From positions 1 through 54,988 of IMG/VR virus record IMGVR_UViG_3300034032_000011: a DNA stretch of 54,988 nt; one strand, written 5' to 3'. This DNA comes from a virus. Taxonomy: Duplodnaviria; Caudoviricetes. The position numbers and the translations under genes were made by a program. The notes beneath the pieces were generated by a model, which saw only the letters and a list, made by a program, of their open reading frames with translations, was not told where the DNA came from and ran no database searches. This document shows, piece by piece, positions 1 to 54,988 of this stretch (within the stretch, counting starts at the first letter, position 1; every line of letters starts with the position of its first letter).

Positions 1-1834
1 GGAATACGACCCTGAGACTGACGGAGTTGACTTCCTAGGTAACGTGCTCGAGAGCGTTAACTTCGCAGACGCCTTCATCAAGAGCGGCATGACCCACACT
101 GGTCTCGCTGCCCTCGGACTCATGCTGGGTAGCCTCGCTGGAGGCGATGACGAAGAGCGTAAGCGTCGCCGTCGTGAAGAAGCTATCGGTGTCGGTCACA
201 TCTACGATCCTCGAGACCTGCGGAACGACATTCGCAATGCAGACGCTTTGTACTTCGAAGACTTCCCCTTCCTGGCACAGTTCTTCGGAGTCACTGACGA
301 GAACGGTACGCAGCGCGCTCCTGCTGAGCTCCACTGGACGCTCAAGCAGTTCATCTCTCCGCTCATGGGTATCTCCCGGTTCATGGATACAGGCAACTAC
401 AATGAGATCTTCTGGGGCTTCGAGGACGCTCTCGGCTCCATGCCGCTGATCAATGCCAACGGCTGGAACGACGCAGTCACGACGAGCAACGCTCTGTTCG
501 AGCAGTCTTACGATGCTGAACAGGCTGCTGAGAACGATGAGACTCTGCTCGCTACAGCCTCTGGACTATTCCTCGATGGCGTCTTCAACCTCGAGCGCAT
601 GCTCCTAGAGAACTCCTTCATCAACGGTCTCTACACCAGTGCAGACCGCTACGACCGTGATCCTTGGACTCTGGCAGACATCGACGCTGACGGTATCCTC
701 CAGCGAGACAACCTCAATGTACCGATGGAGACCACTGCTCTGAACGAGTACTTGAACGACGAGGGCAACGCTGCACTCGGTACTGAGGGTCGTGACCAGC
801 TCAGCGGGTTCCTTCGGTCCAAGAGCGAGCGACGCTTCACACTGGCGTTCTTCGGTAGCCTTGTGACCGGCTTCAACACTCAGAACTCCCTGTGGCGGTA
901 CGACATGGCTGCTCGTACCTACAGCATCGAGAAGCAGGGGCTCGAGCAGAACGAGGTAGACACCCTGCTACTGTCAGAGTGGAACGGAGCAGGTGAAGAG
1001 ATCCTTAACCTCGATGGGGTGGACGCTCTCCTGCGCTCCATCCACGCGGGTTACATCTCCAAGACCAGCCCGGTGCTCGAGAACATCTACCTGACTCAGG
1101 ATCAGCGGTATGCCGCAGCAGAGCGCTTCGAGGCTACGGTCATCCAGCAGTCGCTAGATGCAGGACTTACGCCTGAGGAAGCAGACGCTCGCTGGGACGA
1201 CATCATGTGGGGTCGGCCAGACCAGCCCTGGATCGTGCCGCTCTACGATGTTATCTTCTCCAAGGGCTCTCACGAGAACCAGATTCCCTACGACACTACG
1301 AGCACCTATCGTCAGCTCAACACGACCTGGGTCATCGGCCCAGACGGTAAGCCGTGGGCTACTGGTGTTACTCGCGGTGAGCTCAACAACTTCTGGGGCA
1401 TGGGCGCGCTCCAGCAGTTCAACGGTGCCGGTGGAGACGTTCTAGGCAACCTGACTCAGGACGGTCTGCTCAACTCGACCGACGAGACCGGCAACATCAA
1501 CACTGGAATGCGCAGTCTTGAGAAGGTGACGTCTTCCACCCTCAACCCCACTGATGAAGATATCATGGAACAGTTGAAGGACATTGCAGCCAAGATCCGT
1601 GAGGGTCTACAGGGCAAGTCCTACGGTAACGCTGGAGCAGGGTACCAGCGCTACAGCGGCGGCGGTGGTGGAAGCTACTCCGACATGCCGTTCATGCCGT
1701 TCCAGAATGACATGAAGTCGCCCTACATCGACAACGTTCCAGGCATCTACATCAACAACCCGAACATTCAGCGTGCGTACATTAGGCGTCAGCGCTTCTC
1801 AGCAGAACGAGGGAGAATCAACCAATGGCAGTAA
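1..1834 (+). CDS. C-terminal ~610 aa of the giant protein
   Basis: Frame is open from base 2 (EYDPETDGVDFLGNVLESV...) and in register with the ORF running off base 54988. The stop overlaps the portal start. Confidence 0.88.
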   Translation, partial: EYDPETDGVDFLGNVLESVNFADAFIKSGMTHTGLAALGLMLGSLAGGDDEERKRRRREEAIGVGHIYDPRDLRNDIRNADALYFEDFPFLAQFFGVTDENGTQRAPAELHWTLKQFISPLMGISRFMDTGNYNEIFWGFEDALGSMPLINANGWNDAVTTSNALFEQSYDAEQAAENDETLLATASGLFLDGVFNLERMLLENSFINGLYTSADRYDRDPWTLADIDADGILQRDNLNVPMETTALNEYLNDEGNAALGTEGRDQLSGFLRSKSERRFTLAFFGSLVTGFNTQNSLWRYDMAARTYSIEKQGLEQNEVDTLLLSEWNGAGEEILNLDGVDALLRSIHAGYISKTSPVLENIYLTQDQRYAAAERFEATVIQQSLDAGLTPEEADARWDDIMWGRPDQPWIVPLYDVIFSKGSHENQIPYDTTSTYRQLNTTWVIGPDGKPWATGVTRGELNNFWGMGALQQFNGAGGDVLGNLTQDGLLNSTDETGNINTGMRSLEKVTSSTLNPTDEDIMEQLKDIAAKIREGLQGKSYGNAGAGYQRYSGGGGGSYSDMPFMPFQNDMKSPYIDNVPGIYINNPNIQRAYIRRQRFSAERGRINQWQ

Positions 1835-41628: not shown

Positions 41629-41801
41629 GGTTTTTATTTTAATTAACTAGTTAGCCAACTAGTTTATTTTAATTGTATTATTTATTTGCATTAATCATTC
41701 TAGATTTGGGTTTCGCAACCGTTGGTTGCGCAAGCGCACAAAGCTAGAATAAACCTAGTTGGTCATTGAGTTATTTGTCCTTTGCATTTATTTATTATAT
41801 T

Positions 41802-41840
41802 AAAAGAAAAAACTAGTATCTATTAGATAGATACTAGTTT
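41802..41840 (-). terminator. Intrinsic terminator after the 41845 gene
   Basis: 14-bp perfect stem AAACTAGTATCTAT / ATAGATACTAGTTT followed by TTTCTTTT on the minus strand. Confidence 0.75.
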
Positions 41841-41844
41841 AGTC

Positions 41845-42240
41845 TTATTTAGCGGAGTCCTGGATGTCGTTGATGACTTCCATCTGGTTCTCCGAGAAGC
41901 GCTGAAGCTGCTTCTTGATGTTGCGAAGGTGCGTACGCTCGTCGATAAGATCCTGGAGATCTTCTTCTGCTGCTGTGACAGCCCACGAGTCGATTGCACC
42001 TGCGTTGTTAGATGCTACGACAGATGAGTAGGACTCACGTGCCGTAGCGATCTTGAGGTTGACTGCTTCGAGGCGAGAGCCTACAGCAGTTGCTTGCGCT
42101 GCGCGCTTGTCGGCCATGTCCATCGGGATGGAGAGCGTAACACCCATGACGGTTGCCGCTGTTGCCTTGTCCTCGGGAGAACGTAGCTGGTACTCGACCA
42201 TCCTGTTGATGGATGAGCTGATTGCTTCTAGTGCAGACAT
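41845..42240 (-). CDS. First leftward (early) gene, helical/coiled-coil protein
   Basis: TAAGGAGT RBS, flanked by AT-rich DNA. Confidence 0.75.
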   Translation of the reverse strand: MSALEAISSSINRMVEYQLRSPEDKATAATVMGVTLSIPMDMADKRAAQATAVGSRLEAVNLKIATARESYSSVVASNNAGAIDSWAVTAAEEDLQDLIDERTHLRNIKKQLQRFSENQMEVINDIQDSAK

Positions 42241-42625
42241 CGTTACTCCTTAGTTGCTTGATATGGTTACATTATAGTTACCAAAAAATATCTTGTTAAT
42301 TCAATTTGTTTACTGTTTAGTTACCCTATAGTTACTGTATATTGTCAGATATACATACTTATATATATACTATAGTAGGGGGGTATAGGTTGTTATTATT
42401 GTTATTATAGTATATCAAGGATCTGCTCCGATAAAATTTGCGCAATTGTGACTTGGACCTTACCCCGCATAGTGTCTTTCCCGGAAGCCAACCGGCATCG
42501 ATCCCAGCGGAAAGCACCTCCGCGCGAATCAGAACATTGTTACCGACAGCGTTACCGTACCCCGCGGACCCCCATGGATTCCTTCGCTACAGACCGCCTT
42601 TCCCCCGCGACAGGCCACTACTGGT

Positions 42626-42637
42626 TACAATTAGAGT
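42626..42637 (+). promoter_or_regulatory. Putative -10 element of the rightward operon (TACAATTAGAGT)
   Basis: Matches the capsid upstream 12-mer at 11 of 12 positions. Confidence 0.55.
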
Positions 42638-42670
42638 GGTGGCTCCCGCTGCCGCAATAAAGGAGGAATC

Positions 42671-43153
42671 ATGGGGAAAGACAAGCTGGTGTACAACACC
42701 GATGGGAACCTGGTACCCGCTTCCGGCAAGGTGGCGAGCGCTGAGGTCGAGTCGGACATTCTGGCAGAGCAGGAAGCTGCCCAGGAAGCTCGAGAGAAGC
42801 ACGCCGATGAGCAGGCCGAGGAAGCGCGAATCGCACTCGCCAAGGCTGCCGCCGACAACGCTCCGCAGGGAACGGAGGTAGACCCAACGCTGGGGGCAGA
42901 CGGTCGCCTTGCAGATCCCGGTCGTGCGATCGTCGCCGAGGACGCAGAGGCCATCGCGGCCAACGCAGGATCCACGATCCAGTCCACGCCGGAGGAGAAG
43001 GCAACGTCTTCGGAAGCTGTCGAGCAGCCTGCTGCAGGTAAGGAGGCACCGCCCGTCGCTGCCGCCACCAAGCAGCAGCCCGCAGCGGCCAAGAAGCCGA
43101 ACGCTGCTGCACGCCCGACCCCCGCTGCTCGCACCAAGCCCGCAGCCAAGTAG
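42671..43153 (+). CDS. Ala/Glu/Lys-rich low-complexity protein preceding the giant gene
   Basis: AAAGGAGG RBS, 160 aa. Confidence 0.75.
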   Translation: MGKDKLVYNTDGNLVPASGKVASAEVESDILAEQEAAQEAREKHADEQAEEARIALAKAAADNAPQGTEVDPTLGADGRLADPGRAIVAEDAEAIAANAGSTIQSTPEEKATSSEAVEQPAAGKEAPPVAAATKQQPAAAKKPNAAARPTPAARTKPAAK

Positions 43154-43187
43154 TACCGACCGCTCCTAACGAAGGCACAGAGACACA

Positions 43188-46100
43188 ATGTCAGACGCAC
43201 CCTCTTGGGAGCAGCCCAATGCCCAGCAGGGAGCAGCTTCCGTAGCTGCCCCTGCTGGGATGGCGCAGCCGTCCTGGGCGAAGGACAACGCACGACTGCC
43301 GTGGCAGACTGACGCCACGGAGCGCAATACCGCTGCCTTCGGGGGCCAGCGAGGATCCATTCGTAACGGATGGAACACAGACTTCTACACCAAGCTGTTC
43401 GACCAGAACAAGCAGAGCGTGGACGCGGGCATTGACCCCTACGCTCGTGACGACTTCACTGGAGTCGTGACCTACGACACCAAGATCAAGACCGTGTCCG
43501 GCCAGGATCGCGTCCTCAAGTTCGGTGACGTCTGGGAAGACGGCAAGCGAGTCGAGAACGTCTACGACTACGGCCAGGACGAGGGCAACGCGATTCTCTC
43601 AGCCCTGCAGCTCGGAGCGAAGGAGAAGCTCGAGCTCTTCCAGGACGCCGAGGGTGACCAAGACAAGATCTACAACGCACTGCTCGAGCGCGCCTCTTCC
43701 AACACTGCCGCTGCCGCTGCATACCAAGGCCAGCAGCAGTTCATCCAGGAGCGTGAGGCAATCGAGAAGGACTGGGGCGACTTTGCCCCGCTCGGTGTCT
43801 TCCTCGCTGGCGCTGGAGCCGGTGCTGCTACCGGTGCAGGTGCTGGTGGAGCGATCGGTCTCGCTGGTGGTCTCGCTGCTCTGCCAGCCGCTGGCATCGG
43901 TGCTATCGCTGGTACTGTCATCGGTGGCGTTGGCGCACTGCTCAACCAGGACGAGCTCATCGACAACTTCGCCGCTGCACAGGTGCAGGTAGAGCGGGCT
44001 CAGAATCTCAACAACCCTGGCCTCCAGCTCTCTGCAGGTCTCAGCGGCTACGGTGGAGCAGTAGCTTCCCTGGCTCAGCCGCTCACCAACCTTGGTGTCG
44101 GCCTCACTGAGGTTGCCAACGACTCAGTCGGTAACGACATCAGCAGCCGAGACGAAGCCTACGCTCAGGACAACCTCGTTCAAGAGGGGCTCCGATTCGG
44201 ACTGTCCTTCGCTGACGCCTTCGCACAGTTTGCAGGTGCTCCCGGTACTGCTTTGTACATGGCGACGATGGGAGCAGTCACTGCTGGTGGCGCTGTCGGC
44301 CTCTCGACAGGTATGCAGTGGGACGACAGGCTTCAGGAGTACAACCCCATCGCTGACTCCGGCTCTGCCGTCGAGGACGCCGGTCGCTGGGCCTCTGCCA
44401 TTGGCGCTGTCGGTATCGACGCCGTCCAGACGTTCATGCCTGTCGGTGTCCTCCGAGCAGCCGACCGTGTCGGCGGTGCTGCTGGAAGAGTGGGCGGCAA
44501 GACACCGATCGCGTTCGAGCAGCGCATTGTTCAGAAGGCCAACGACGGTGACCGTGTCGCTCTCATTCAGGCCAAGCTGTTGGGCCTCGAGACCGAGCGC
44601 ACCACCGTCATGAATGGTCGCACGTTCCTCAAGGAGGACGGTCAGGTCGTCGGCGTATCGCGACTCCCCAACGTCACCCTGCTGGCTCCCAGCGAGGCTA
44701 TCGGCTTCCTGTCGGCCCGAGCCGTGGCAATGTACAACCAGGTTCGCGGTGCTAGCCTAGGTGCCAGTGACCTGTACGCTGCCAGTCTCCGCCTTCGAGA
44801 GCTGCCACCCCTGTCTCAGGCGCTCGTCACCGGCTTCGGTGAAGGTTACGAGGAAGTGGCACAGTCCTTCCTCCAGAACTGGAGTCAGGGCTACAACCCC
44901 AGTCCGGAAGAGCTGGTTCGCTCTGGCCTCGGTGGCTTCATCGCCGGTGCTGGTATGTCGGCTGGTGCACAGGTCGGTCGCAACCCGAAGCTCGAGGGTC
45001 TCGGAGTAGTCAACTCCGTTCGTGCCATGACCGGCTCGCCGTTGCTGAGCGAGGAAGACTGGCTCGGTCTCAGCGCCGTTGAGCGACAGGCAGAGCGAGA
45101 CATCTCTCCTGCCATTCGCGCCACTGCTCAGCGAGCCCGTCAGGATCTCATCTCTGACATGGTGGACGTTACGTTCGGTGGAACGGTCATCCCCGAGATT
45201 CGCGTCGACGCAGCCGTTCGTGCTCGTGATGCTGCTCTCGAGCGCGCGCTCCCCGCCTCTGAGCGCACCTGGAAGCTGTCAGCCACCGAGAACCCGGCCT
45301 TCGATTCCAACGCTGTTCGCATCGAGCTCCAAGCATTCCTTCTGGCCTTCGACACTCACGCTCGCGTGTTCGAAGAGACAGGTCGTGGCGCCAGCGCTGC
45401 TGCCGTCCGTGCCCTGCTCGACTACACCAAGGTCATCGCAGCCCGAGTCCTGCAGAATCCTCTCACTGCCACGACAGACAAGACTACGTTCGAGATTGTG
45501 AGAGCAGATGGATCAACGATTCCGGTCGGTTTCAGCAGTATCGAAGCTGTCAACGTTCTCCTCCGCGATGCTTACGAGGGACGTGGAGTCCCAGCTGTAC
45601 CTGGAGCAACGGCTAGCTGGGACAACGAGGCTGCCAGACGCGGTATCGAGCCCGTCTTCAACCGCCAGCCAGCTGATTCCAACGGTAGCTGGGCAATGCT
45701 TCGGCCCGAGATCGACGCCAACGTCACCAGCGAGCGTGATCCCGGAGATCCCGACAAGACGTGGCGACTCAGCCATGCTGTCCTCAAGGGGCTTTCGGGA
45801 GACTTCGATGGAGACGGCGGAGCTCTCCGATCGCTACTCCGCCTCGAAGACGATGGAGCAGATAATGGCGAGGCTCGTCGCCGCCTCCGTCTAGGCCTCA
45901 ATCTGGTGTCTGGAGACACCATCATGGTGGACTCGTACGCCACCGAGATCCACAACTCCAACCTCATCATCCGTCACCCACTGCGCGACAAGCCAGGATT
46001 CGTGAAGAGCCGCCTTGACAAGGCTGTGGCCGAGGTAGTAGCGCTCCTGGAGCCAGCTGGTCGCATGCCAGCAGCTAAGCTGCGTCTCGAGGTACAGCGT

Positions 46101-49100
46101 AATCTCCGTGATGTGCTGCTCAAGGGTCACGACCCTGAGGCCAAGCAGCACTTCTGGAAGTGGCTCATCCGTGCCGACATGCTCGGTGCTGCCTCCGAGG
46201 CCACAGACTCTGCCGTCGTCTACAAGCTCAACGACGTCTGGGTACGCGCCCTTAGCGAGATCGGTACTCGCATCGCGATGGAGAATGGGGCGACGGCAGA
46301 GGCCTCCATTGCTGCAGCACAGGCTGCTGGTGACCCCAACGCGAAGAAGATCGTTGAGACCGCAGCCAAGATTCCTGCCAGCCAGGCTCGACGCAACGAC
46401 CCTCGACCTGCTGCTACGCTGGGTCAGACAGTCGCTCTCCAGACTCCTGGAAACGACGACGTTCGCAAGAAGCAGAAGCTCAACCAGTCGCCTCTCGCGA
46501 GCCAGACGCTCGACGGTGGAGCAATCGCTGGCCACCTTGAAGCTGCTCAGAGGTTCTACCGCATCCTGTCTAGCGGAACGACCCGCACTCAGCTCGACTC
46601 GACCACTCGCGTCGACGAGGTAGCAGCCTACGCTCGCGCCGGTCTCGAGAAGCTGCTCGTCGAGTGGAACGTGGAGCGTACCCAGTCGGGTGAGCTCCCG
46701 ATCGAGATGCATGATCTAGTCAACATCTCTCTACCGAACATTGATGGTGTTGAAGCTCTAGCAGGTCGCTTTAAGTTCTTCAACGAGAGTGACCCGAACG
46801 CTAGCATTGGCCAGCTGGCCCTTCGGTTCGCAGTCAACCACTACCGTGGTATCGACTCGCCGGTGCTCGAGGTCAACAACGGCGAGCTCCGCAACAAGTA
46901 CATCGCGATCGAGAAGAAGGGCATGAAGGACACCATCGTCGAGCTCTTCGGAGAGACGATGATGGACTCGCTCGTGGGCATGGAGCCCAGTTCTCGCCTC
47001 GGCTGGACGGGCCTCACACTCAACCAGGCGCTCGCAGAGTACACCAGTCTCGATCAGGCTGGTCGCAAGGCAAAGATCCAGCTGGCGAAGCGACTCCCGC
47101 AGTATGGCTCGACGCCGTCCACGGAGAAGCCGCTACCTGCCTCCGAGGTTGGCAACGTCTCTGCATTCCGAGTCTTCATGGACGCGATCGAGACCAAGGG
47201 CAACCTGTTCATCACGATGAGCGACTCCGGTCTCGCCTCGACTGAGACCGTTGCTGGAGGCAGCGACGCTGCGCTCATCGATGACCTGCAGAGCGCAGCC
47301 AAGTCCGTTCGCAAGTACGCCCTCGATGCCTCGCGCGCGCTCGGGGCTAACAAGGTGCGTGGAGACCTCCACGTTGGAGCCAACGACAAGCTCACCGTGG
47401 AGCAGGTCTCCCACCTGTTCGAGGTAGACCGCCAGTTCGGTAAGCGACTGGCTGGTCTCGTGCCTCCTGGTATCGCCCTCTCGGTGTTCACCGAGGTCAA
47501 CGGCGTGGCTACCGTCCCGGACTGGTTCTACGACTTCATCACAGAGTCGAACGAGCAGCTTGCGGCCTACAAGCTGTGGCGCGGTATCCTCATCATGCAG
47601 TTCGACGCCGTCGCTGGCGAGACGAACTCCATCTCCGACGACAGGCTCATTGCTCAGTACCAGGCAGTGACCTCCGCAGACCCCACGGGTCGTGCTGCTG
47701 CTAGGATCCAGTCGGCCCTGGCCGAACAGCAGTCGATCCGTGGCTTCCTCTCATGGTTCAACCTGAACATGAACGGTGCTAACCCGCCTCAGCTGGCGAT
47801 CCTGAGAGATCAGGTCACTCTCGATACCAGCTTTTCGCAGGGTGGCTGGCGTCGTACGGGTACCCAGCAGGAGTTCAAGGAGGCCATCCGCGCTATGCGC
47901 GACCAGGTGGCCCAGTCTGCTCGCACCCTCAACGCCACAGTCGAGCGTGCCAGCAAGGACGACACCACTTGGTACAAGATCCAGAATGGTGACATCGATA
48001 CTCGTCGACTGGTGGATAAGTCCATCGCCCTCAAGAAGAAGCTGCCTACCGGTACTGGCACCGGCGTTCTCAACAACGCCCTGCGTAGCCTGAACGTGGG
48101 CCTCGTGGGCGACGAGTCTGAGAAGGCTAAGGCTGCTCGAGGTACTGCTGGGATGGGCGCTGTCGCTGTGGCTCAGCAGAACACCTGGGGAACCCCTCGC
48201 GACCAGCTGCGAGCAGCGTGGACGAGCATCTCCGAGATGGATGCTCTCGCTCGGCCTGATCGCCTCCTGTACCCTTTCAAGTTCTGGACCCAGGACGGCG
48301 TGCCTGTCGAATGGCCAGGGCTGACCTTCGAGATCATCCAGGAGATGTCCTATGATCTTGCTCTTCGCCCCATCATCACCGCTGCCCTCGGCCCGACCGT
48401 CTTCGATCAGGCCAACCCTGACGAGCCTGTCTCGCTCGCTGCACTGACGAGTCAGTCGATCACTGACATCGTCACGGAGCCGCACGAGATCCGTAGGATC
48501 GTGAGCGGCGAGAGCTACGCCGACCGTTCTCGGTTCCTTTCTGCCGTCTCTGGCAAGGGCGTCGCTCAGGAAATCGTTGAGCTCGCTCACGGTATCTTCA
48601 TCGCGCGCACGAGCGGTGCCACCAGACCGCTGAACGCTGCAGAGTACGTCGAGTGGTCTGACGATGCGATGAACACTGCTGCACGCTGGCTGCGCCTCGC
48701 TAGTCAGGTGCCTGTTAGTGAGCGCTCCGGCGTTGCCGCTGAGCTCGCCAAGCTCGGTCCTCAGCCGCTGCTGGCCGACCCGACCAACGAGAGCCTGTCG
48801 AAAGAGGATCGAGCCGCTGCTCTGATCGTCCGTGAGCTCCTCGAGAACGCCAAGACTGAGGCTATTCTCAAGCTGTCCGGTAAGGAGCAGGTACAGGCGG
48901 GTCTCCGCTACCAGCGCATGATCGATCGCCTTACTGCCAACTCCAGTGCTCAGGCTCTCGTCACGAGCTACTCCATTCCGGAGAACCCTGCCCTCGTACA
49001 CGACGCCAAGATCCGCATCTGGCGCAAGGCGCAGTCTCTCGGCTTCTTCTGGTCGATGACCCAGGGTCCAGACGCTGAGCGTGCTAACGCCTTCTTGTCT

Positions 49101-52100
49101 CTCGTGCCCAAGGACGGTCAGCAGTACCCTGAGGACACCAACAACCCTGCAGAGACGGCCGCCAACTGGGACGCGCTCACCCGCTCGATCGTCATGTACG
49201 AGCTCGGTATCGGCACCGGACAGACCACCGTCTCTCCTGAAGCGCGTGCTACGATGTCAGTCTCTGACCCATCGTTCGCGATCTTCCACGGTGACTGGTC
49301 GTGGGTCTACGACTTCGCCAAGCCAAGCAACGGTCGCTACGACTTGTGGAATGCTGCCAACGAGGTCCAGGAAGCCCTCACAGGTGACACTCTCGCTGGA
49401 GACACTGGAGCGTCCCTCGTGGATGCGATCAAGCGAGACCTCTACGAGAACTCGCGTTACCCGCTGGGTGCCTACAACAGTACCTATGCTCAGCAGTTCC
49501 TCGTGGGTCGGGACAAGCTCACTCGTTCTGCCAGCGAGCCAGCCATCGAGATCGGTGGTTCTGGACCGCAGAAGAACATCACGCTCGACACAGCCAGCCG
49601 TTACACCTTCAAGCACCCTGACGAACTGGGAGTACAGCCTCGCAAGTACGTGTTCTCTAGTCGTGTACTCTACCCGGTCACGAGCAACGGCCAGCAGCGC
49701 GAGCTGTCCATGGAAGACCGCCTCGCTGAGATGGACTTCGGCAACGGTCAGTCTGACCACCTTGGTATCCTGCAGGGTCGCTTCGTCAAGTCCATCACCA
49801 TCACCAAGCCGAACGGTGTGGCTCTGGACTTCTCGACCTCCGCTCTGCAACCGGCTATCACGAGCAGTGTCTCCAAGCAGACTCGTGCTAGTGGACTCAA
49901 GGTAACGAGCCCTGACCAGTTGGCGCTGGCTCTCAAGCCCTACGCCACTCAGGATCTCACGATTGAGATCGAGCTCTACCACCCCGACGACAAGCCACTG
50001 GGTGAAGCCAACAACATCTACTTCGTCGGTACTGCTCGAGGTCGCGAGGCAGATGCCGGTCTGTCCCCGTTCTCCGCCGACCTGCAGAACGAGGGTGAGA
50101 CTCAGCAGCTGTCTCGCAAGGCTCTCGACGCGATGAAGAAGCACACTTCGGCTATCGGTATCCCGAGCTTGCCGGAGCGTGCAGACGTTCGTGCACTCGA
50201 AGACCCGACGAACATGCGTGCCACGATCGAATACAAGGTGGCTCAGTACATGCTGAGCGACACTGACATCACGATGATCGACGCCTCGGCAGAGAACAAG
50301 CTCCGCAAGGAGGTTCTCATGCAGTCGATCATTCGTGGCATCGACGAGACCGGTGCTGTACAGATCTTCTCGGCAGAAGAGATCATTGCTCACCAGAACA
50401 GTGGATCGCCCGAGCCGTACCCGATGCCGCTCCAGAACGTACAGTTCGAGACCATCCCTATTGACTTCCTTCGCTCCTTCCTCGGAGAGCAGGGCACCCA
50501 GGGCTCGACGGTCAACCTCGATCCTGAGCGGTTCAACGCCAGCATCCAGACCTGGGATGCCTACACTGGTCACTGGGACCGCGAGATGATCAAGACCCTC
50601 GCCCCTGGACTGCTCGACCCGACAACCCTGTCTCCCGACACCGTCAGCCTTGCTAAGATCATGGGCACCAGTCTCTTCGCCAAGACCGGTTTCCTGCGTC
50701 AGTCACACCCTCGCAAGATCGCCTCTGCCAGGGAGATCAAGGAGTACTACTCCATCCTGGACACTTGGAGCGCTGCTCGTCGTGTCGCTGGTGAGGAGGG
50801 GCGAGTCCGCGATAAGGGTACTCAGGACGCCCTCGCCGAGAACAGTGCTCGCAACGCAGACATCGTCGCTGAGTTCGATAACCAGCGCGGTGCTCGCACG
50901 ATCGTTCAGCTCAGCGAGCTCAAGATCTCTGGCGTTCCTGGAGTGTCCGACGAGGTACTGACCCGTACTCAGAACCTGGTACGTACGGCTCACGCCCAGG
51001 ACGCCGGTTCTGTAGCAATGTCCATCGGCGAGCGCAAGGAGCTCTGGCTCCTCAAGCCCGAGAGTGCTAGCGGCGGCGTGATGAAGGGTATTGTTCGCAG
51101 TCTGGCCGATCTTCGCTGGAACGCTGAGGAGCACCGTCAGGCTACTGGAGCCAACCCCATGCCTGGTGACGAGATCGCCGTCGACCCTGCAGACAACGGC
51201 GTCACTCAGAGCATGATCGAGTCGATCCTCGAGAGTGGCTACTCCGTAGCTCTGTATGGTCCCAGCACCAGCGCAGACGACATCGCTCTTACCAAGCGTG
51301 CTCTGGAGAACACCGGTCGCTTCGTTGAGGAGCACGGTCGGTGGTACCTCCGTGACCCTCGGGCTGGCTCCGTTACTGGAGTCGCTCGTGAGAGTAACCT
51401 GTTCGTAGTGGAGCGCCAGTCCACCAAGAAAGTTGTTGGCACGTTCATCACCAGCCGACTGCAGGGTGAGAACTCGCTGATTGTCGTCGACCCCAAGAAC
51501 ATGAAGGGTCGCGACATTGGCGTAGTCAAGACTCTCGTGCAGACGGGCCCGCACATCGGCTTCAACCGACCCAGCACTGCCGTTGGCATCTCTCGCATCC
51601 GCACCCTGCTCGACGAGTGGGCCGATCCTGCTTTGCGAGCAGTGTGGGAGGATCACCTGATCGCTCTGTCTGGTCCCAAGCTGGGGGCAGAGGGTCGCAT
51701 CGCTCTCATTGAGGCAATGGACCGTGCGATCGGTAACACCAACCGGAACACCGGACTGCCGATCACGAGGCAGGAAGACGCTGCAGCCGATAAGGTACGC
51801 CTGGGCGACTTCATCTTCCTGACTGACGCTCGTGGGCAGCTCATCATCACTCGCCACGGTCACAAGACCTTCGAGACCCAGGACAACCGCCGTACCCGCA
51901 ACGAGCAGCTGCGTACTCCACTGTTCGAGGGTGGCCCCGCAGGTCGTGTCGCTATCTACTTGCCCGAGGTCGACAACGATCCCACGTTCTTCGAGGGCGT
52001 CGTAGAGAGCTGGACCCCTGGCTCGCGAGCGCTGGAGGGCAATATGCGTGTTCCTCTCTCAGCGCTGTCGAGTAAGCTCATGATGGCAATGATCGGCATC

Positions 52101-54988
52101 AAGGGCTTCGCCAACACTCTCAAGAACGCCGGCTTCGATGTTACGAAGAAGCAGGTATCTGAGAAGATCCCTCTGCAGTTGCTCGTCTCTGAGGCCGACT
52201 ACGTGAGCAAGGAGGGCATGTCCCTCGACAACGCTCACGAGGCTATCAAGTGGCTCGGCTTCGATGCTACTGAGGCATACGCTATCGCCATGCTGGGGAT
52301 CACCCAGGAAGCATGGGACGAAGCCGTAGCCCAGCGAGAAGTAGGGAATGCCACAGCGTACCAGACGATTCGTGGAGCAGTCAAGGACTATCTCGCCGCC
52401 TACAGCCGTAGCTGGGCGTCGTCTGCTCTCACTGGGCTCGATGCTGCCGACTACATCTCTGCGCTCGCGGGTGACGTCAGTCACGTGTCTAGCGAGATCC
52501 AGGATATCATCAGCATGCTCCCCGCTGAGGCCCAGACGAAGCTGACTACAGTACTCGAGGGTGGCTTCTCGCCGGAGGCTCGCATTACCCTCGCTGCTCT
52601 TACCTACCTGTCTACTCCCAACGCTCAGGTGGATGCTATCCTGTCCACCGAGGGTGTCGAGGGTGTGACAGAAGAAGTCGTGTCCATGCCTCCACTGTTC
52701 ACCAACCTGTTCGTTCAGGCCACGAAGAACTCCGACCTGCAGGGTTGGATCGGTAAGCGAATCAACGATCGTCTGCCCTACGGTACAGACGCTCAGGGTC
52801 GTGCAGACGGATACGTCTGGAACCCGACCAGCGGTCGCACGACCATGTTCGTTCCCGGCCAGGAGCCGCTCGAGGGTCGCTACGGCTTCTACGAGCTCCA
52901 CGCCAACGGTGCAGACAACGGTGAGATCTTTGCACAGTCGTTCGAGCACTCCTCGAAGCAGACCGCTAGCCTCTCCATCCGCAACGTGGCGGTAGGCGCA
53001 CTGTATGGCGTGGACGCTGGCCACTCGCCCGACCTGCCCAAGCTCAAGCAGACGCTCAAGGGACGTACCTTCGATCCTTCCACAGAGGTCGGCCTCGACC
53101 AGATCTTCTCTGGGGCTACTGCAGCGTACATCAACTCGCTGGAGCCCAGCACCATGCTGTCCCCCGCAGAGGTTAAGTACGTGGAGACGGGTGCTGAGCT
53201 CGTGTCGGCCTTCACGCAGACTGCAGACCTCGAGGGTGATGAGCTCGGATGGACTGCTGCTCGCAAGGCTGAGGTCAAGAGCAACGCAGAGCGACTGTTC
53301 CAGCGCCACGGTCTCGACGCTCGTGATATCGATATGATCCACGGCTGGGTTCGTCGCTACCTGTGGCGTCCCAAGGAAGCTGGAGCAGATCCGAGTCAGG
53401 CCGAATACGGTCACATCTCCTACACAGCCTGGACCACAGCGTTCAAGGCTATCGAGAAGAACATGCTCAACGGTCGTTACCCGACCTGGCTTGCCAATGT
53501 CCCGGCCATGCACGCTGATGAAGTACGCTACTTCATCCTCGCCTTCCAGCGCTCGGGTGGAAAGAGCTTCATGCCTTCCGCTAAGCCGTGGGGTTCTAAG
53601 GCCGACAAGCGAGATGCCTCTCGCCGTGCCAAGGAGAATGACCCTCGTATGCTCAAGGGCGAGGCTCTCGAAGAGTACTTCTACAACGTGGCCATCGGTG
53701 AGATGATGGAGAGCACCGTCTCCAAGATCACTCAGCCCGCAGTAGATGGATTCCTTCACACCTACCAGGGGGTCTACTCCGACGGTTCGCTCATGGCTCT
53801 GTCCATCAGTGAAGAGGTACGGAACACCCTGCTGGATCCTGCGCTCAACAACATGGTGCTGTCGCTCGACAAGAACTACCGACAGTTCCTCAAGGTCATC
53901 CCAACCGACTCTGTCGTGGAGTCGCAGGTCACGGATATCTTCGGAGCAGGACTGCTCCAGGGTCGCTACGCCACCAGCTATCTCGGCAAGGACGCCCTCG
54001 TCGAGACCAAGGAGCGTCAGCTCCGTTGGCTCCGTGAGAAGAACATGTCCAACTCTTCCATGAAGGGTATCGATATCGCCAGCAGAGGTCACGAGCTCCG
54101 CTCGACCGCCGGTGTCACGACTGCACTCATGCGCATCTTCATCAACCTCCGACTGATCAACGGCATGGGTAACCCTCTCCTGATGCTGTCAGCTCCGGTA
54201 GAGACGTTCGCTCGCAACACCGTTGAGGACGCCAAGGCACTGCTGACAGGCCAGTCCACTAGTGCCGTGGGCATCAACATCTCCAAGATGCGTGCATCGT
54301 TCCGCGACTCTGTCATTGGCCAGTCTGCAGTAGTCTCTGCTCTCGCTCCTGAGGTTCAGATGACTCTCAGCACTGAGACTCTGCTCCACGCTCGTAACGT
54401 GATCAAGACCCTCGGTGACGACAAGGCTGTCTTCAAGCCCACGATCGCTGGCGACCTCGTTCCGCACATCGAGATTACTGGTAGCTGGGTAGAGCGTCAG
54501 TCTGCTCGTGCAGCCAAGTTCCTTGGTAAGTCGCAGGATCCCATGTGGGCTATCTCGACTCCGAAGATGGCAGAGCGCTTCGTGGGTGCCGTCATGCAGT
54601 ACTTCCAAACCGTGGGTACTGAGAACGGCTACACCCTTGACGACGCTCTCGAAATGGCTGCGACCTCGTTCACGACGTTCCGCAAGACGTTCCCGCAGGT
54701 GTATACCCTTGCTATCAACACAGTAGCGAACGTTCGTACCACCAAGGCTACGACAGTGAGCCTCGCCGCTGGCGCTGCCATTGACGCTCTGTCGACCAGC
54801 CGGTATGGTGGGGTGAATATCATCAGCAACCTGTCGCTCAAGATCCCGTTCATCTTCCAGAACTACGCTTTCAACGCCGCGACCAACATTATGGGTCTGC
54901 AGTTCCTGGACTCTGTGTTGGCTCTCGCTGCTCAGGGCAAGACGAGCGGTCGCACCTGGGGACAGGTCCAGTCCTTCCTCAATGGTCG
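43188..54988 (+). CDS. Giant (~4,544 aa) virion/ejection protein with a two-barrel RNA polymerase catalytic domain; 5' part, continues across the window end
   Basis: ATG at 43188 (MSDAPSWEQPNAQQG...). The ORF track lists no closed ORF in this frame, consistent with no stop before the window end. The last codon CG+G joins base 1 in the frame of ORF 44..1834. In-frame PVFNRQP at 45651 and GDFDGD at 45798-45815. Confidence 0.88.
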   Translation, partial: MSDAPSWEQPNAQQGAASVAAPAGMAQPSWAKDNARLPWQTDATERNTAAFGGQRGSIRNGWNTDFYTKLFDQNKQSVDAGIDPYARDDFTGVVTYDTKIKTVSGQDRVLKFGDVWEDGKRVENVYDYGQDEGNAILSALQLGAKEKLELFQDAEGDQDKIYNALLERASSNTAAAAAYQGQQQFIQEREAIEKDWGDFAPLGVFLAGAGAGAATGAGAGGAIGLAGGLAALPAAGIGAIAGTVIGGVGALLNQDELIDNFAAAQVQVERAQNLNNPGLQLSAGLSGYGGAVASLAQPLTNLGVGLTEVANDSVGNDISSRDEAYAQDNLVQEGLRFGLSFADAFAQFAGAPGTALYMATMGAVTAGGAVGLSTGMQWDDRLQEYNPIADSGSAVEDAGRWASAIGAVGIDAVQTFMPVGVLRAADRVGGAAGRVGGKTPIAFEQRIVQKANDGDRVALIQAKLLGLETERTTVMNGRTFLKEDGQVVGVSRLPNVTLLAPSEAIGFLSARAVAMYNQVRGASLGASDLYAASLRLRELPPLSQALVTGFGEGYEEVAQSFLQNWSQGYNPSPEELVRSGLGGFIAGAGMSAGAQVGRNPKLEGLGVVNSVRAMTGSPLLSEEDWLGLSAVERQAERDISPAIRATAQRARQDLISDMVDVTFGGTVIPEIRVDAAVRARDAALERALPASERTWKLSATENPAFDSNAVRIELQAFLLAFDTHARVFEETGRGASAAAVRALLDYTKVIAARVLQNPLTATTDKTTFEIVRADGSTIPVGFSSIEAVNVLLRDAYEGRGVPAVPGATASWDNEAARRGIEPVFNRQPADSNGSWAMLRPEIDANVTSERDPGDPDKTWRLSHAVLKGLSGDFDGDGGALRSLLRLEDDGADNGEARRRLRLGLNLVSGDTIMVDSYATEIHNSNLIIRHPLRDKPGFVKSRLDKAVAEVVALLEPAGRMPAAKLRLEVQRNLRDVLLKGHDPEAKQHFWKWLIRADMLGAASEATDSAVVYKLNDVWVRALSEIGTRIAMENGATAEASIAAAQAAGDPNAKKIVETAAKIPASQARRNDPRPAATLGQTVALQTPGNDDVRKKQKLNQSPLASQTLDGGAIAGHLEAAQRFYRILSSGTTRTQLDSTTRVDEVAAYARAGLEKLLVEWNVERTQSGELPIEMHDLVNISLPNIDGVEALAGRFKFFNESDPNASIGQLALRFAVNHYRGIDSPVLEVNNGELRNKYIAIEKKGMKDTIVELFGETMMDSLVGMEPSSRLGWTGLTLNQALAEYTSLDQAGRKAKIQLAKRLPQYGSTPSTEKPLPASEVGNVSAFRVFMDAIETKGNLFITMSDSGLASTETVAGGSDAALIDDLQSAAKSVRKYALDASRALGANKVRGDLHVGANDKLTVEQVSHLFEVDRQFGKRLAGLVPPGIALSVFTEVNGVATVPDWFYDFITESNEQLAAYKLWRGILIMQFDAVAGETNSISDDRLIAQYQAVTSADPTGRAAARIQSALAEQQSIRGFLSWFNLNMNGANPPQLAILRDQVTLDTSFSQGGWRRTGTQQEFKEAIRAMRDQVAQSARTLNATVERASKDDTTWYKIQNGDIDTRRLVDKSIALKKKLPTGTGTGVLNNALRSLNVGLVGDESEKAKAARGTAGMGAVAVAQQNTWGTPRDQLRAAWTSISEMDALARPDRLLYPFKFWTQDGVPVEWPGLTFEIIQEMSYDLALRPIITAALGPTVFDQANPDEPVSLAALTSQSITDIVTEPHEIRRIVSGESYADRSRFLSAVSGKGVAQEIVELAHGIFIARTSGATRPLNAAEYVEWSDDAMNTAARWLRLASQVPVSERSGVAAELAKLGPQPLLADPTNESLSKEDRAAALIVRELLENAKTEAILKLSGKEQVQAGLRYQRMIDRLTANSSAQALVTSYSIPENPALVHDAKIRIWRKAQSLGFFWSMTQGPDAERANAFLSLVPKDGQQYPEDTNNPAETAANWDALTRSIVMYELGIGTGQTTVSPEARATMSVSDPSFAIFHGDWSWVYDFAKPSNGRYDLWNAANEVQEALTGDTLAGDTGASLVDAIKRDLYENSRYPLGAYNSTYAQQFLVGRDKLTRSASEPAIEIGGSGPQKNITLDTASRYTFKHPDELGVQPRKYVFSSRVLYPVTSNGQQRELSMEDRLAEMDFGNGQSDHLGILQGRFVKSITITKPNGVALDFSTSALQPAITSSVSKQTRASGLKVTSPDQLALALKPYATQDLTIEIELYHPDDKPLGEANNIYFVGTARGREADAGLSPFSADLQNEGETQQLSRKALDAMKKHTSAIGIPSLPERADVRALEDPTNMRATIEYKVAQYMLSDTDITMIDASAENKLRKEVLMQSIIRGIDETGAVQIFSAEEIIAHQNSGSPEPYPMPLQNVQFETIPIDFLRSFLGEQGTQGSTVNLDPERFNASIQTWDAYTGHWDREMIKTLAPGLLDPTTLSPDTVSLAKIMGTSLFAKTGFLRQSHPRKIASAREIKEYYSILDTWSAARRVAGEEGRVRDKGTQDALAENSARNADIVAEFDNQRGARTIVQLSELKISGVPGVSDEVLTRTQNLVRTAHAQDAGSVAMSIGERKELWLLKPESASGGVMKGIVRSLADLRWNAEEHRQATGANPMPGDEIAVDPADNGVTQSMIESILESGYSVALYGPSTSADDIALTKRALENTGRFVEEHGRWYLRDPRAGSVTGVARESNLFVVERQSTKKVVGTFITSRLQGENSLIVVDPKNMKGRDIGVVKTLVQTGPHIGFNRPSTAVGISRIRTLLDEWADPALRAVWEDHLIALSGPKLGAEGRIALIEAMDRAIGNTNRNTGLPITRQEDAAADKVRLGDFIFLTDARGQLIITRHGHKTFETQDNRRTRNEQLRTPLFEGGPAGRVAIYLPEVDNDPTFFEGVVESWTPGSRALEGNMRVPLSALSSKLMMAMIGIKGFANTLKNAGFDVTKKQVSEKIPLQLLVSEADYVSKEGMSLDNAHEAIKWLGFDATEAYAIAMLGITQEAWDEAVAQREVGNATAYQTIRGAVKDYLAAYSRSWASSALTGLDAADYISALAGDVSHVSSEIQDIISMLPAEAQTKLTTVLEGGFSPEARITLAALTYLSTPNAQVDAILSTEGVEGVTEEVVSMPPLFTNLFVQATKNSDLQGWIGKRINDRLPYGTDAQGRADGYVWNPTSGRTTMFVPGQEPLEGRYGFYELHANGADNGEIFAQSFEHSSKQTASLSIRNVAVGALYGVDAGHSPDLPKLKQTLKGRTFDPSTEVGLDQIFSGATAAYINSLEPSTMLSPAEVKYVETGAELVSAFTQTADLEGDELGWTAARKAEVKSNAERLFQRHGLDARDIDMIHGWVRRYLWRPKEAGADPSQAEYGHISYTAWTTAFKAIEKNMLNGRYPTWLANVPAMHADEVRYFILAFQRSGGKSFMPSAKPWGSKADKRDASRRAKENDPRMLKGEALEEYFYNVAIGEMMESTVSKITQPAVDGFLHTYQGVYSDGSLMALSISEEVRNTLLDPALNNMVLSLDKNYRQFLKVIPTDSVVESQVTDIFGAGLLQGRYATSYLGKDALVETKERQLRWLREKNMSNSSMKGIDIASRGHELRSTAGVTTALMRIFINLRLINGMGNPLLMLSAPVETFARNTVEDAKALLTGQSTSAVGINISKMRASFRDSVIGQSAVVSALAPEVQMTLSTETLLHARNVIKTLGDDKAVFKPTIAGDLVPHIEITGSWVERQSARAAKFLGKSQDPMWAISTPKMAERFVGAVMQYFQTVGTENGYTLDDALEMAATSFTTFRKTFPQVYTLAINTVANVRTTKATTVSLAAGAAIDALSTSRYGGVNIISNLSLKIPFIFQNYAFNAATNIMGLQFLDSVLALAAQGKTSGRTWGQVQSFLNG

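What the first reader, a model, noticed from the sequence alone, without database searches (positions are those of the whole stretch)
45651..45815. Two-barrel RNA polymerase active-site signature inside the giant virion protein
Seen: the in-frame translation reads PVFNRQPADSNGSWAMLRPEIDANVTSERDPGDPDKTWRLSHAVLKGLSGDFDGD (about aa 822-876). Established: the Rpb1/RpoC catalytic barrel reads FNRQPSLH...TFRLN..V...YNADFDGD, and the three Asp bind Mg2+. Three motif elements match here in order (FNRQP, T[FW]RL, DFDGD) with one insertion. Inference: a small actinobacterial podovirus packages and injects a single-chain cellular-type RNA polymerase. This is analogous to the crAss-like phage virion RNAP and is a different family from the T7-like N4 vRNAP. 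As I recall, the giant genes of such Microbacterium phages are mostly annotated with unknown function.
Basis: partly seen in the sequence, partly recalled or inferred. Interest (0 to 1): 0.95.

Follow-up and report, generated by a model that had tools for sequence, protein, structure and literature searches.

The report
RNA polymerase hidden in giant phage protein
The 4,544-residue protein that fills a quarter of this soil-phage genome, and whose role is still called elusive in print, most likely contains a cell-type RNA polymerase that the phage carries in its particle to start its own transcription.

Summary
Window 45651-45815 translates exactly as quoted (aa 822-876 of the ORF starting at 43188).

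- **Gene:** the ORF runs off the contig end and continues in phase at base 2. It gives a 4,544-aa protein with no stop.
- **Phage:** an uncultured relative of Microbacterium cluster EK podophages. The capsid protein is 64-68% identical, the giant protein only about 25%.
- **Beta-prime-like barrel:** R826, P828, D872, D874, G875 and D876 are invariant in 21/21 and 25/25 giant homologues.
  - A family profile hits the phiKZ gp55 beta-prime-like subunit (E 0.003) and E. coli beta-prime (E 0.004), both on this motif.
  - An AlphaFold2 model of aa 430-1600 returns beta-prime/Rpb1 chains in 49 of the 50 PDB rows shown.
- **Beta-like module:** a model of aa 2401-3400 returns only beta/Rpb2 chains in PDB ranks 1-22, and poxvirus/pithovirus RNAP subunits in BFVD. 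The E-values are weak. Invariant K2963 and K3008, and near-invariant K2972, lie there.
- **Order:** beta-prime then beta, the reverse of every single-chain two-barrel polymerase I found described.

Best reading: a virion-delivered RNA polymerase (about 0.68). Activity, packaging in this phage and injection are untested.

I found no paper that makes this assignment. This scan reached the beta-prime barrel before on another genome (e1-3278194), without the second barrel.

The parts
43188..54988 (+). Giant gene, first 3,933 codons plus 2 bases of codon 3,934; it runs off the 3' end of the contig
   Evidence: ORF list and translation. No Pfam or PHROG family on it.
1..1834 (+). Giant gene, last base of codon 3,934 and the final 610 codons plus stop. 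The contig is a circularly permuted genome.
   Evidence: ORF 2..1834 is open at its 5' end. The joined reading is 4,544 aa without a stop, and one BLASTP alignment covers residues 1-4544 against the L003 homologue at 48% identity. The C-terminal consensus of 21 homologues matches the end of this ORF.
43773..44087 (+). Gly/Ala-rich uncharged hydrophobic stretch near the N-terminus (about aa 196-300), a possible membrane-inserting segment
   Evidence: Read directly from the translation. Many invariant or near-invariant Gly lie in this stretch. Its function was not tested.
44475..47987 (+). Beta-prime/Rpb1-like module (aa 430-1600 as modelled)
   Evidence: AlphaFold2 model: pLDDT 73.9, pTM 0.46. 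In Foldseek against PDB, 49 of the 50 rows shown are titled as multisubunit RNA polymerases. They are chains A/D/J/N/PA of 361-1,535 residues, which I read as largest-subunit chains from convention and length. Best hit 6ovy_D, E 5.2e-4, prob 0.99.
45651..45827 (+). Catalytic barrel core: R826 (45663-45665), P828 (45669-45671), D872 (45801-45803), D874 (45807-45809), G875, D876 (45813-45815)
   Evidence: Invariant in 21/21 and 25/25 homologues. Aligned to the NRAP...NADFDGD stretch of E. coli beta-prime (hhalign E 0.0042) and to phiKZ gp55, PDB 7ogp_A (hmmsearch E 0.0029). Model pLDDT here is 77-86.
50388..53387 (+). Region modelled as the beta/Rpb2-like module (aa 2401-3400)
   Evidence: AlphaFold2 model: pLDDT 71.4, pTM 0.47. 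Foldseek PDB ranks 1-22 are all RNA polymerase entries, chains C/I/B/X/A of 1,054-1,342 residues, read as second-largest subunits. E 0.014 to 1.1, prob up to 0.85. In Foldseek BFVD, after three self-family hits come pithovirus, ascovirus and sheeppox RPO132 RNAP subunits, E 1.3e-3 to 3e-2.
51705..52277 (+). Beta-strand-rich core of the beta-like module (aa 2840-3030). Conserved residues: G2873-D2874 (51804-51809), R2889, G2891, K2963 (52074-52076), K2972 (52101-52103), K3008 (52209-52211).
   Evidence: Strands at model residues 475-601 with pLDDT 71-91. Conservation among 24 rows: K2963 24/24, K2972 22/24, K3008 24/24, D2874 23/24. Their assignment to the Rpb2 D837/K979/K987 positions is my inference and is not resolved.

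Best explanation
The giant gene (43188..54988 joined to 1..1834, 4,544 aa) encodes a virion-carried, single-chain RNA polymerase of the two-barrel (cellular) type.

Proposed layout:
- An N-terminal part of about 430 aa with a Gly/Ala-rich hydrophobic stretch.
- A beta-prime-like module (about aa 430-1600). Its barrel carries R826/P828 and the Mg-binding D872/D874/D876.
- An unassigned stretch of about 800 aa.
- A beta-like module (core about aa 2840-3030) with invariant K2963 and K3008 and near-invariant K2972.
- An unassigned C-terminal part of about 1,100 aa.

Proposed mechanism, all inferred:
1. The protein, whole or processed, is packed in the podoviral particle.
2. It is ejected with the DNA.
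3. It transcribes the first phage genes independently of host RNA polymerase, as crAss-like gp66 and P23-45 gp96 do.

What is shown here: the gene structure, the conservation, the sequence-profile link to beta-prime, and the two fold matches.

What is inferred: catalysis, packaging in this phage, ejection, and which genes are transcribed.
For: 1. The motif is exact and far beyond chance.
2. R-x-P and D-x-DGD are invariant in 21/21 and 25/25 homologues that share only about 16-26% identity. These are five of the eight residues that Ruprich-Robert and Thuriaux list as invariant in all two-barrel RNAPs (PMC2919709, passages read).
3. A family profile finds beta-prime-type chains in the PDB sequence set. 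phiKZ gp55 (7ogp_A) scores E 0.0029 and aligns on R.P...GS...DFDGD. Weaker rows are the cyanobacterial gamma subunit (E 0.31) and chains named 'beta-prime subunit' (7s01_d, 7s00_d; E about 0.6). hhalign to E. coli beta-prime gives E 0.0042 on the same stretch.
4. The model of aa 430-1600 retrieves multisubunit RNAP entries in 49 of 50 rows shown, read as largest-subunit chains from chain letters and lengths.
5. The model of aa 2401-3400 retrieves only RNA polymerase entries in PDB ranks 1-22, read as second-largest-subunit chains. In BFVD it retrieves viral RNAP subunits right after its own family. I had marked this place beforehand from the invariant lysines.
6. Invariant K2963, near-invariant K2972 (9 residues on) and invariant S-K3008 (36 residues further) resemble in spacing the GDK..RHGNKG and PSRMN stretches of E. 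coli beta, visible.
7. Context:
   - The gene is the second ORF of the rightward virion block, after a 160-aa ORF, and sits directly before the portal and capsid genes.
   - Cultured relatives are podoviruses, and Burro virions hold a ~250 kDa protein attributed to the giant gene product (PMC7302621).
   - No other RNA polymerase was seen in the genes scanned.
Against: - No Pfam RNAP model matches. There are 0 families on the protein, none of the RNAP kind in 24 members, and PF00623 and PF00562 do not match the six-frame window at E<=10.
- The beta-like module has no sequence-level support. Profiles of aa 290-640, 1601-2400 and 2401-3400 found no RNAP chain in PDB. hhalign to E. coli beta, alone or as a 77-sequence profile, gave probability 0.3%.
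- Its Foldseek E-values are weak (best 0.014), and no residue-level superposition was available.
- Both models have pTM below 0.5.
- No similarity to crAss gp66 was found. Similarity to P23-45 gp96 is motif-level only (probability 2.8%).
- The leftward genes next to the giant gene have host-type promoter-like sites: TTAACA-17-TATAAT at 42299-42271, and a repeated box that reads as an extended -10. Host polymerase could therefore start early transcription.
- Polymerase activity, virion presence in this phage and injection are untested.
Confidence: 0.68

Rival explanations
1. It is a real two-barrel RNA polymerase but not an injected one. It is made during infection and transcribes middle or late genes, and its presence in particles is incidental or structural.
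For: Host-type promoter-like sites lie upstream of the leftward genes next to the giant gene. The giant gene lies in the virion/late block. P23-45 and phiKZ show that phages can have non-virion two-barrel RNAPs (PMC10770324; PMC4666361, abstract in the listing).
Against: The relative Burro has a ~250 kDa virion protein attributed to this gene product (PMC7302621). The gene sits immediately before the portal gene, and it carries long non-polymerase N- and C-terminal parts with a hydrophobic stretch. That layout is typical of ejected proteins (established knowledge for N4 vRNAP and crAss cargo proteins, recalled).
Confidence: 0.1
2. It is an ejection or internal-core structural protein in which the polymerase-like barrels are relics with no catalytic role, or serve only to grip DNA during genome entry.
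For: About 60% of the protein has no assignable fold or family. No Pfam RNAP model matches. The protein evolves very fast, at about 25% identity against 64-68% for the capsid protein.
Against: Relic sites do not stay invariant. All three Asp, the Gly, and the R-x-P are kept in every one of 25 rows despite that fast divergence. The lysines of the second module are kept as well.
Confidence: 0.1
3. It is a two-barrel enzyme with another chemistry: a PolD-like DNA polymerase or primase, or a QDE-1-like RNA-dependent RNA polymerase.
For: Two-barrel cores also occur in archaeal PolD and in eukaryotic RdRPs (PMC10770324, passages; PMC2919709). Template and product cannot be read from sequence.
Against: No PolD, QDE-1 or RDR chain appears in the 50 rows shown of either PDB fold search; the RNA polymerase rows are multisubunit RNAP entries. 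The sequence-profile hits are to DNA-dependent RNAP beta-prime. The phage already has a family A DNA polymerase and a primase/helicase-like set.
Confidence: 0.06
4. It is a chance motif in a low-information giant ORF.
For: None, beyond the failure of Pfam models to match.
Against: 0 of 20,000 shuffles reproduce the motif pair. It is invariant across 25 rows. Two independent fold matches exist.
Confidence: 0.01

Closest known systems
Beta-prime-like N-terminal subunit of the phiKZ non-virion RNA polymerase (gp55, PDB 7OGP chain A), and beta-prime/Rpb1 of multisubunit RNAPs in general
   Same: This is the only sequence-level link found. hmmsearch gives E 0.0029 on R.P..GS...DFDGD, and hhalign to E. 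coli beta-prime gives E 0.0042 on the same stretch. Foldseek to 7ogp_A gives prob 1.00, TM (target) 0.34 and 256 columns. RNAP entries fill 49 of the 50 rows shown.
   Different: Here the beta-prime-like and beta-like parts are in one 4,544-aa chain with about 1,900 further residues. No Pfam RNAP domain model matches. No small subunits or sigma-like factor were identified.
Virion RNA polymerase gp66 of crAss-like Cellulophaga phage phi14:2 (PDB 6VR4)
   Same: What it works like: a very large protein of a podovirus, packed in the particle, with a DFDxD two-barrel active site, that transcribes early genes (abstract of bioRxiv 10.1101/2020.03.07.982082 as listed).
   Different: No detectable sequence similarity: hhalign probability 0.4% and 0.2%. 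6VR4 is not among the 50 fold matches shown. Single-chain enzymes of this group have the beta-like barrel before the beta-prime-like one (PMC10770324). Here the order is the reverse. The host phylum and phage lineage also differ.
Thermus phage P23-45 gp96, virion RNAP fused to the tape measure protein (Chaban et al. 2024, PMC10770324)
   Same: A giant (5,002-aa) virion protein with a DFDGD at a similar distance from the N-terminus (779-783 against 872-876 here). The rest of that protein is unrelated to RNAPs, and it contains transmembrane segments.
   Different: gp96 is a tape measure of a long-tailed phage, and its polymerase is the N-terminal part only. hhalign gives only a motif-level match (probability 2.8%, E 0.016). 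The cultured relatives here are podoviruses with no tape measure. The barrel order is reversed.
[quoted passage not shown]
   Same: An actinobacterial, very fast-evolving giant protein. Only a few dozen residues match the two-barrel core, and the authors suspected a phage origin (passage read).
   Different: The order is beta then beta-prime, and it is half the size. It is chromosomal and not known as a virion protein. I did not compare the sequences.
N4-type virion RNA polymerase (T7-like single-subunit fold)
   Same: A giant protein (about 3,500 aa) ejected by a podovirus for early transcription (abstract of PMC13434306 in the listing).
   Different: It is an unrelated fold family. No Pfam family of any kind, including T7-type RNAP, matches the protein. 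Jacobs-Sera et al. reported no similarity to N4 vRNAP (PMC7302621).

Membership tests
Two-barrel (double-psi beta-barrel) RNA polymerase superfamily | The five invariant residues of the Rpb1/beta-prime barrel: Arg and Pro (Rpb1 R446, P448) and the Asp triad (PMC2919709) | tested here: met
   R826, P828, D872, D874 and D876 are invariant in 21/21 and 25/25 homologues. They align to the NRAP...NADFDGD stretch of E. coli beta-prime.
Two-barrel (double-psi beta-barrel) RNA polymerase superfamily | The three invariant residues of the Rpb2/beta barrel: one Asp and two basic residues 8 apart (Rpb2 D837, K979, K987) | tested here: inconclusive
   Candidates are K2963 (24/24), K2972 (22/24, 9 residues apart), and D2874 (23/24) or D2661 (24/24). 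A second possible register is GD2874...R2889-H-G2891 against GDK..RHG of beta. No alignment or superposition fixes the assignment.
Two-barrel (double-psi beta-barrel) RNA polymerase superfamily | Predicted fold of the largest-subunit type around the Asp triad | tested here: met
   The model of aa 430-1600 retrieves multisubunit RNAP entries in 49 of 50 Foldseek rows, read as largest-subunit chains. Best E 5.2e-4, prob 0.99-1.00. I could not inspect coordinates to count barrel strands.
Two-barrel (double-psi beta-barrel) RNA polymerase superfamily | Predicted fold of the second-largest-subunit type | tested here: met
   The model of aa 2401-3400: PDB ranks 1-22 are all RNA polymerase entries, read as beta/Rpb2/B chains. 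E 0.014-1.1, prob up to 0.85. BFVD ranks 4-7 are viral RNAP subunits, E 1.3e-3 to 3e-2. The scores are weak, so I treat this as provisional.
Cellular-type multisubunit RNAP beta-prime/beta as defined by Pfam domain models | Match to RNA_pol_Rpb1_2 (PF00623) and RNA_pol_Rpb2_6 (PF00562) | tested here: not met
   0 Pfam families on the protein. No RNAP family in 24 members of A2. Neither family matches the six-frame window at E<=10, while all 14 control genomes match.
crAss-like virion RNAP (gp66 family) | Detectable homology to gp66 | tested here: not met
   hhalign of A2 and A3 against phi14:2 gp66: probability 0.4% and 0.2%.
crAss-like virion RNAP (gp66 family) | Beta-like barrel N-terminal to the Asp-triad barrel in one chain | tested here: not met
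   No beta-type chain appears in the 50 rows shown for the model that spans aa 430-1600, which includes the 440 residues before the triad. No invariant basic pair lies upstream. The beta-like fold lies about 2,000 residues downstream.
Virion-packaged RNA polymerases (functional class) | The protein is present in purified particles | not testable with these tools
   Only indirect: a ~250 kDa band in Burro virions attributed to gp27 (PMC7302621). No proteomics exists for this uncultured phage.
Virion-packaged RNA polymerases (functional class) | Templated RNA synthesis that depends on the Asp triad, and host-RNAP-independent early transcription | not testable with these tools
   No experiment is available. 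No paper in the searched library reports one.
N4-type (T7-like) virion RNAP | T7-like single-subunit polymerase domain | tested here: not met
   No Pfam family of any kind on the protein. The fold matches are to multisubunit RNAP chains only.

The most novel reading that the evidence does not exclude
The giant protein is a head-to-tail fusion, or a polyprotein later cut into subunits, of near-full-length beta-prime-like and beta-like polypeptides in the order beta-prime then beta. That would be an architecture not described for any two-barrel polymerase. It would mean that actinobacterial podophages evolved a virion RNA polymerase from a multisubunit, jumbo-phage-like or cellular enzyme, independently of the crAss gp66, QDE-1 and P23-45 lineage. 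Hydrophobic N-terminal and unknown C-terminal parts would couple polymerase delivery to genome ejection.
Probability: 0.4. Interest if true: 0.88.

Novelty: new variant of a known kind. Interest (0 to 1): 0.78.

Why it matters
The >13-kb gene of the Microbacterium cluster EK, EM and Burro-type phages is the largest gene known in any actinobacteriophage. It takes a quarter of the genome. Its function has been called unclear since 2020 (PMC7302621) and 'elusive' as late as March 2026 (PMC13069448).

- **A testable function for dozens of culturable phages:** 58 records in the phage collection share this capsid. Their host is easy to grow, so the idea is directly testable.
- **A third lineage:** it would add a third independent lineage of phages that deliver a cell-type RNA polymerase, the first in Actinobacteria.
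- **A new architecture:** if the beta-prime-then-beta order holds, it shows a new way to build a single-chain two-barrel polymerase. That bears on how these enzymes evolved from, or into, multisubunit RNAPs.
- **Annotation:** homology-based pipelines miss such enzymes entirely, since no Pfam or PHROG hit was obtained.

Tried and rejected
**Searches that led nowhere**
- megablast of 3 kb of the gene against phages found nothing.
- phmmer of aa 501-1700 against PDB sequences found no RNAP.
- Pfam and PHROGs on the giant protein and its C-terminal piece found nothing.
- A Pfam scan of all 24 members of A2 found no RNAP family.
- PF00562 and PF00623 did not match the six-frame window.
- Profiles of aa 290-640, 1601-2400 and 2401-3400 found no RNAP chain in PDB sequences.
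- hhalign of the family profiles found nothing significant against phi14:2 gp66, E. coli beta, or my own 77-sequence gammaproteobacterial beta profile. Against P23-45 gp96 it gave only a motif-level match.
- The ESM Atlas features search of aa 2401-3400 gave no usable hit.
- The word-indexed homologue search found only one relative. The exhaustive one found 24.

**Complex prediction**
I sent the beta-prime-like core (aa 779-1229) with the beta-like core (aa 2840-3120). The result was 'no answer' (score 0.00). It counts neither for nor against.

**Ideas considered and dropped**
- *A beta-like barrel upstream of the triad, as in QDE-1, gp66 and gp96.* By eye, 'LAPSE...SAR' and 'GFGEGxEE' at aa 500-556 resemble beta's PSRMN and GYNxED. 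However, they come in the wrong order, no beta chain is in the rows shown for that model, and the profile of aa 290-640 hit only an aldehyde dehydrogenase at E 0.8.
- *The repeated AT-rich 20-mer as a vRNAP promoter.* It reads equally well as a host extended -10, so I make no claim.
- *The contig in L003 being the window itself.* It has the same length, but it is a different phage.

**What I could not see**
- Supplementary figures 7-11 of PMC10770324 and Supplementary Data S1 of PMC2919709 hold the residue-level barrel alignments that would help place the beta-like residues.
- The VIA-align libraries were not available.
Full report
**1. The observation**

The stretch is in frame with an ORF that starts at ATG 43188 and is still open at the last base of the contig. 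It corresponds to aa 822-876.

- A D[FYWHNT]DGD pentapeptide occurs once in all six frames of the window.
- The protein's composition predicts about 0.003 DFDGD per protein.
- None of 20,000 shuffles of the protein contains NR.P followed by D[FY]DGD at 25-60 residues.

**2. The gene and the phage**

The window is a whole IMG/VR record of 54,988 bases, rated complete. The giant ORF leaves two bases at the 3' end. Base 1 completes the codon, and ORF 2..1834 continues in phase.

- Joined, the reading frame is 4,544 codons without a stop.
- One BLASTP alignment covers residues 1-4544 against the closest homologue, locus L003, at 48% identity.
- The C-terminal consensus of 21 homologues ends like ORF 2..1834.

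The contig is therefore a circularly permuted genome cut inside its largest gene.

Downstream follow a portal-like gene (1825-3849), the capsid gene (3896-5557), minor tail proteins and terminase. The opposite strand carries a family A DNA polymerase, helicase, nuclease and primase-like genes. This is the layout of Microbacterium phage Astartes, where a 13,470-bp 'hypothetical protein' gene precedes the portal and capsid genes.

The capsid protein is 64-68% identical to cluster EK phages. All 58 matching phage records come from Microbacterium (57) or Arthrobacter (1). The giant protein is only about 25% identical to theirs.

Jacobs-Sera et al. 2020 (PMC7302621, passages read) describe these phages as follows:
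- They are podoviruses with circularly permuted genomes.
- The >13-kb gene is the largest in any actinobacteriophage.
- They found no similarity to N4 vRNAP.
- Burro virions contain a ~250 kDa protein attributed to this gene.
- They left its role open.

**3. Conservation**

An exhaustive HMMER search with aa 651-1750 found 24 proteins, 20 of them 4,381-4,827 aa long. A scan of IMG/VR found 31 loci.

- D-x-D-G-D is kept in 21 of 21 giant proteins and in 25 of 25 rows of window plus full-length loci. The two sets overlap in part. One duplicate locus (L014) was left out of later alignments.
- The second position varies (F, Y, W, H, N, T). The three Asp and the Gly never vary.
- Of only 56 invariant columns in 3,933, nine lie here: R826, P828, S834, D872, D874, G875, D876, R901 and G903.
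- Ruprich-Robert and Thuriaux 2010 (PMC2919709, passages) list eight residues invariant in all two-barrel polymerases. The five from the Rpb1 side (Arg, Pro, three Asp) are exactly these.

**4. Link to beta-prime**

- A profile of aa 430-1600 from 24 sequences (A2), searched against PDB sequences, gave the phiKZ non-virion RNAP subunit gp55 (7ogp_A) as best hit at E 0.0029. The alignment runs from R.P..GS through DFDGD.
- Weaker rows were the cyanobacterial gamma subunit (E 0.31) and chains named beta-prime subunit (E about 0.6).
- hhalign of A2 against E. coli beta-prime gave E 0.0042 (probability 8% against a single sequence). It placed R826/P828 on NRAP and D872-D876 on NADFDGD.
- AlphaFold2 on A2 gave pLDDT 73.9 and pTM 0.46, with 77-86 around the motif.
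- In Foldseek against PDB, 49 of the 50 rows shown are multisubunit RNAP entries. The exception, 9fyx_A, is titled as an influenza polymerase complex. From chain letters and lengths I read the RNAP rows as largest-subunit chains.
- The best hit is E 5.2e-4 with probabilities 0.99-1.00. Local matches of 243-300 columns have rmsd 6.7-11.5.
- No QDE-1, gp66, gp96 or PolD chain is among the rows shown.

**5. The second barrel**

Every known two-barrel enzyme needs a beta/Rpb2-type barrel. An earlier follow-up in this scan, on a 4,422-aa homologue (e1-3278194), could not find one.

Upstream of the triad I found no support:
- That part of the model is mostly helical.
- No beta-type chain is in the rows shown.
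- A profile of aa 290-640 hit nothing relevant.

From I noticed invariant lysines K2963, K2972 and K3008 about 2,000 residues downstream, and I used the second fold job there.
- The model of aa 2401-3400 (A3) has pLDDT 71.4 and a strand-rich core at aa 2875-3001 with pLDDT 71-91.
- Foldseek against PDB returned RNA polymerase entries only in ranks 1-22. By chain letter and length they are second-largest subunits: bacterial beta, archaeal B, plant Pol IV subunit 2 and yeast Rpb2.
- The E-values are weak (0.014 to 1.1; probability up to 0.85).
- In the independent BFVD library, the first three hits are pieces of the Burro, TinyTimothy and Truong giant proteins. Next come pithovirus, ascovirus and sheeppox (RPO132) RNA polymerase subunits at E 1.3e-3 to 3e-2.

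Sequence methods do not see this module.

Conserved residues in the core are G2873-D2874 (23/24), R2889 and G2891 (22/24 each), K2963 (24/24), K2972 (22/24) and S-K3008 (24/24).
- The spacing K-9-K-36-SK resembles K-8-K-33-SR in E. coli beta (GDK..RHGNKG...PSRMN, visible).
- A second register is also possible (GD...RHG).

I therefore report the beta-side residues as candidates only.

**6. Architecture and mechanism**

Taken together, the protein reads as five parts:
- N-terminal ~430 aa with a Gly/Ala-rich hydrophobic stretch.
- A beta-prime-like module.
- About 800 unassigned residues.
- A beta-like module.
- About 1,100 unassigned C-terminal residues.

The two modules together span roughly as many residues as beta-prime plus beta. 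In the single-chain enzymes described in print, the beta-like barrel comes first:
- QDE-1 residues D709, R738 and K743 precede R962, P964 and D1007-1011.
- The yeast plasmid Orf6 is Rpb2::Rpb1.
- NCgl1702 is beta::beta-prime (PMC2919709).
- In P23-45 gp96 the connector runs from DPBB-B to DPBB-A (PMC10770324).

Here the order is the reverse. The published ~250 kDa virion band suggests processing, so the chain may be cut into subunits.

The most likely mechanism is inferred by analogy with gp66, gp96 and N4 vRNAP. The protein is packed in the head, ejected with the DNA, and transcribes the first genes.

Against a strict need for it, the leftward genes next to the giant gene carry host-type promoter-like sites:
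- TTAACA-17-TATAAT at 42299-42271.
- A 20-mer repeated at 40697 and 41613 that contains a TG-n-TAGTAT extended -10-like core on the coding strand.

**7. Prior knowledge**

Four full-text searches found no paper that links these phages to a two-barrel or virion RNA polymerase.
- A 2021 announcement calls the gene 'novel' (PMC8281081).
- A March 2026 one says its function 'remains elusive' (PMC13069448).
- GenBank records label it hypothetical protein, and RefSeq and one Arthrobacter record label it tape measure protein.

Subscription journals are not covered by these searches. Within this scan, the beta-prime barrel of this family was already reported on another genome (e1-3278194). Similar DFDGD giant proteins were noted in other phage groups.

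**8. Verdict**

The protein is best described as a new, very divergent family of virion-associated two-barrel RNA polymerases, with an unusual beta-prime-then-beta single-chain layout.
- Firm: the beta-prime barrel.
- Provisional: the beta-like module.
- Inferred: catalysis, packaging in this phage and injection.

Confidence in the virion RNA polymerase reading is 0.68.

Noticed in passing
window 40697-40716 and 41613-41632: An exact AT-rich 20-mer occurs twice (0 expected), each copy about 36 nt upstream of a leftward gene start in AT-rich intergenic DNA. On the coding strand it contains a TG-n-TAGTAT core, like an extended -10. It could be a host-type or a phage-polymerase promoter.
   Followed up: partly
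window 42299-42271 (- strand): A near-consensus sigma-70-like site, TTAACA-17-TATAAT (11 of 12), lies just upstream of the leftward gene 41845..42240. In total 6 promoter-like sites were found in 40300-43300, against 3.1 +/- 1.9 in shuffles.
   Followed up: no
window about 40940-41240: A cluster of GGTGTATCA boxes in both orientations, several 10-11 bp apart, in non-coding DNA. It looks like an iteron array or origin.
   Followed up: no
window about 40872-40936: A long perfect inverted repeat (arms of about 26 bp) just left of the box array, with no T-tract.
   Followed up: no
window 41810-41840: A 14-bp-stem AT-rich palindrome that scores as a bidirectional terminator-like site between two leftward genes.
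   Followed up: no
window 42671-43153 (+): A 160-aa ORF directly upstream of the giant gene, the first ORF of the rightward block. From the DNA, its C-terminal third looks rich in Ala, Pro and Lys. No analysis was done.
   Followed up: no
giant gene versus capsid gene (window 43188-54988 + 1-1834 versus 3896-5557): The giant protein is only about 25% identical to those of cultured cluster EK phages, while the capsid protein is 64-68% identical. The polymerase-bearing protein evolves much faster than the capsid.
   Followed up: partly
L003 (IMG/VR contig, 14,735 bases held): The closest relative's contig is listed with exactly the same length as the window (54,988 bases). It is a different phage, with 48% identity in the giant protein and only short DNA matches of 75-80%. 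This is a coincidence or a bookkeeping quirk.
   Followed up: partly
L024:3714-16130: In this IMG/VR relative the giant ORF is about 400 codons shorter at the N-terminus than in the others. It may be a frameshift or an assembly error.
   Followed up: no
window aa 2612-2700 of the giant protein (about 51021-51287): The profile of aa 2401-3400 weakly matches the MoCF-binding-type domain of plant CNX1 (E 0.05), around the invariant D2661. This may be a small alpha/beta domain before the beta-like core.
   Followed up: no
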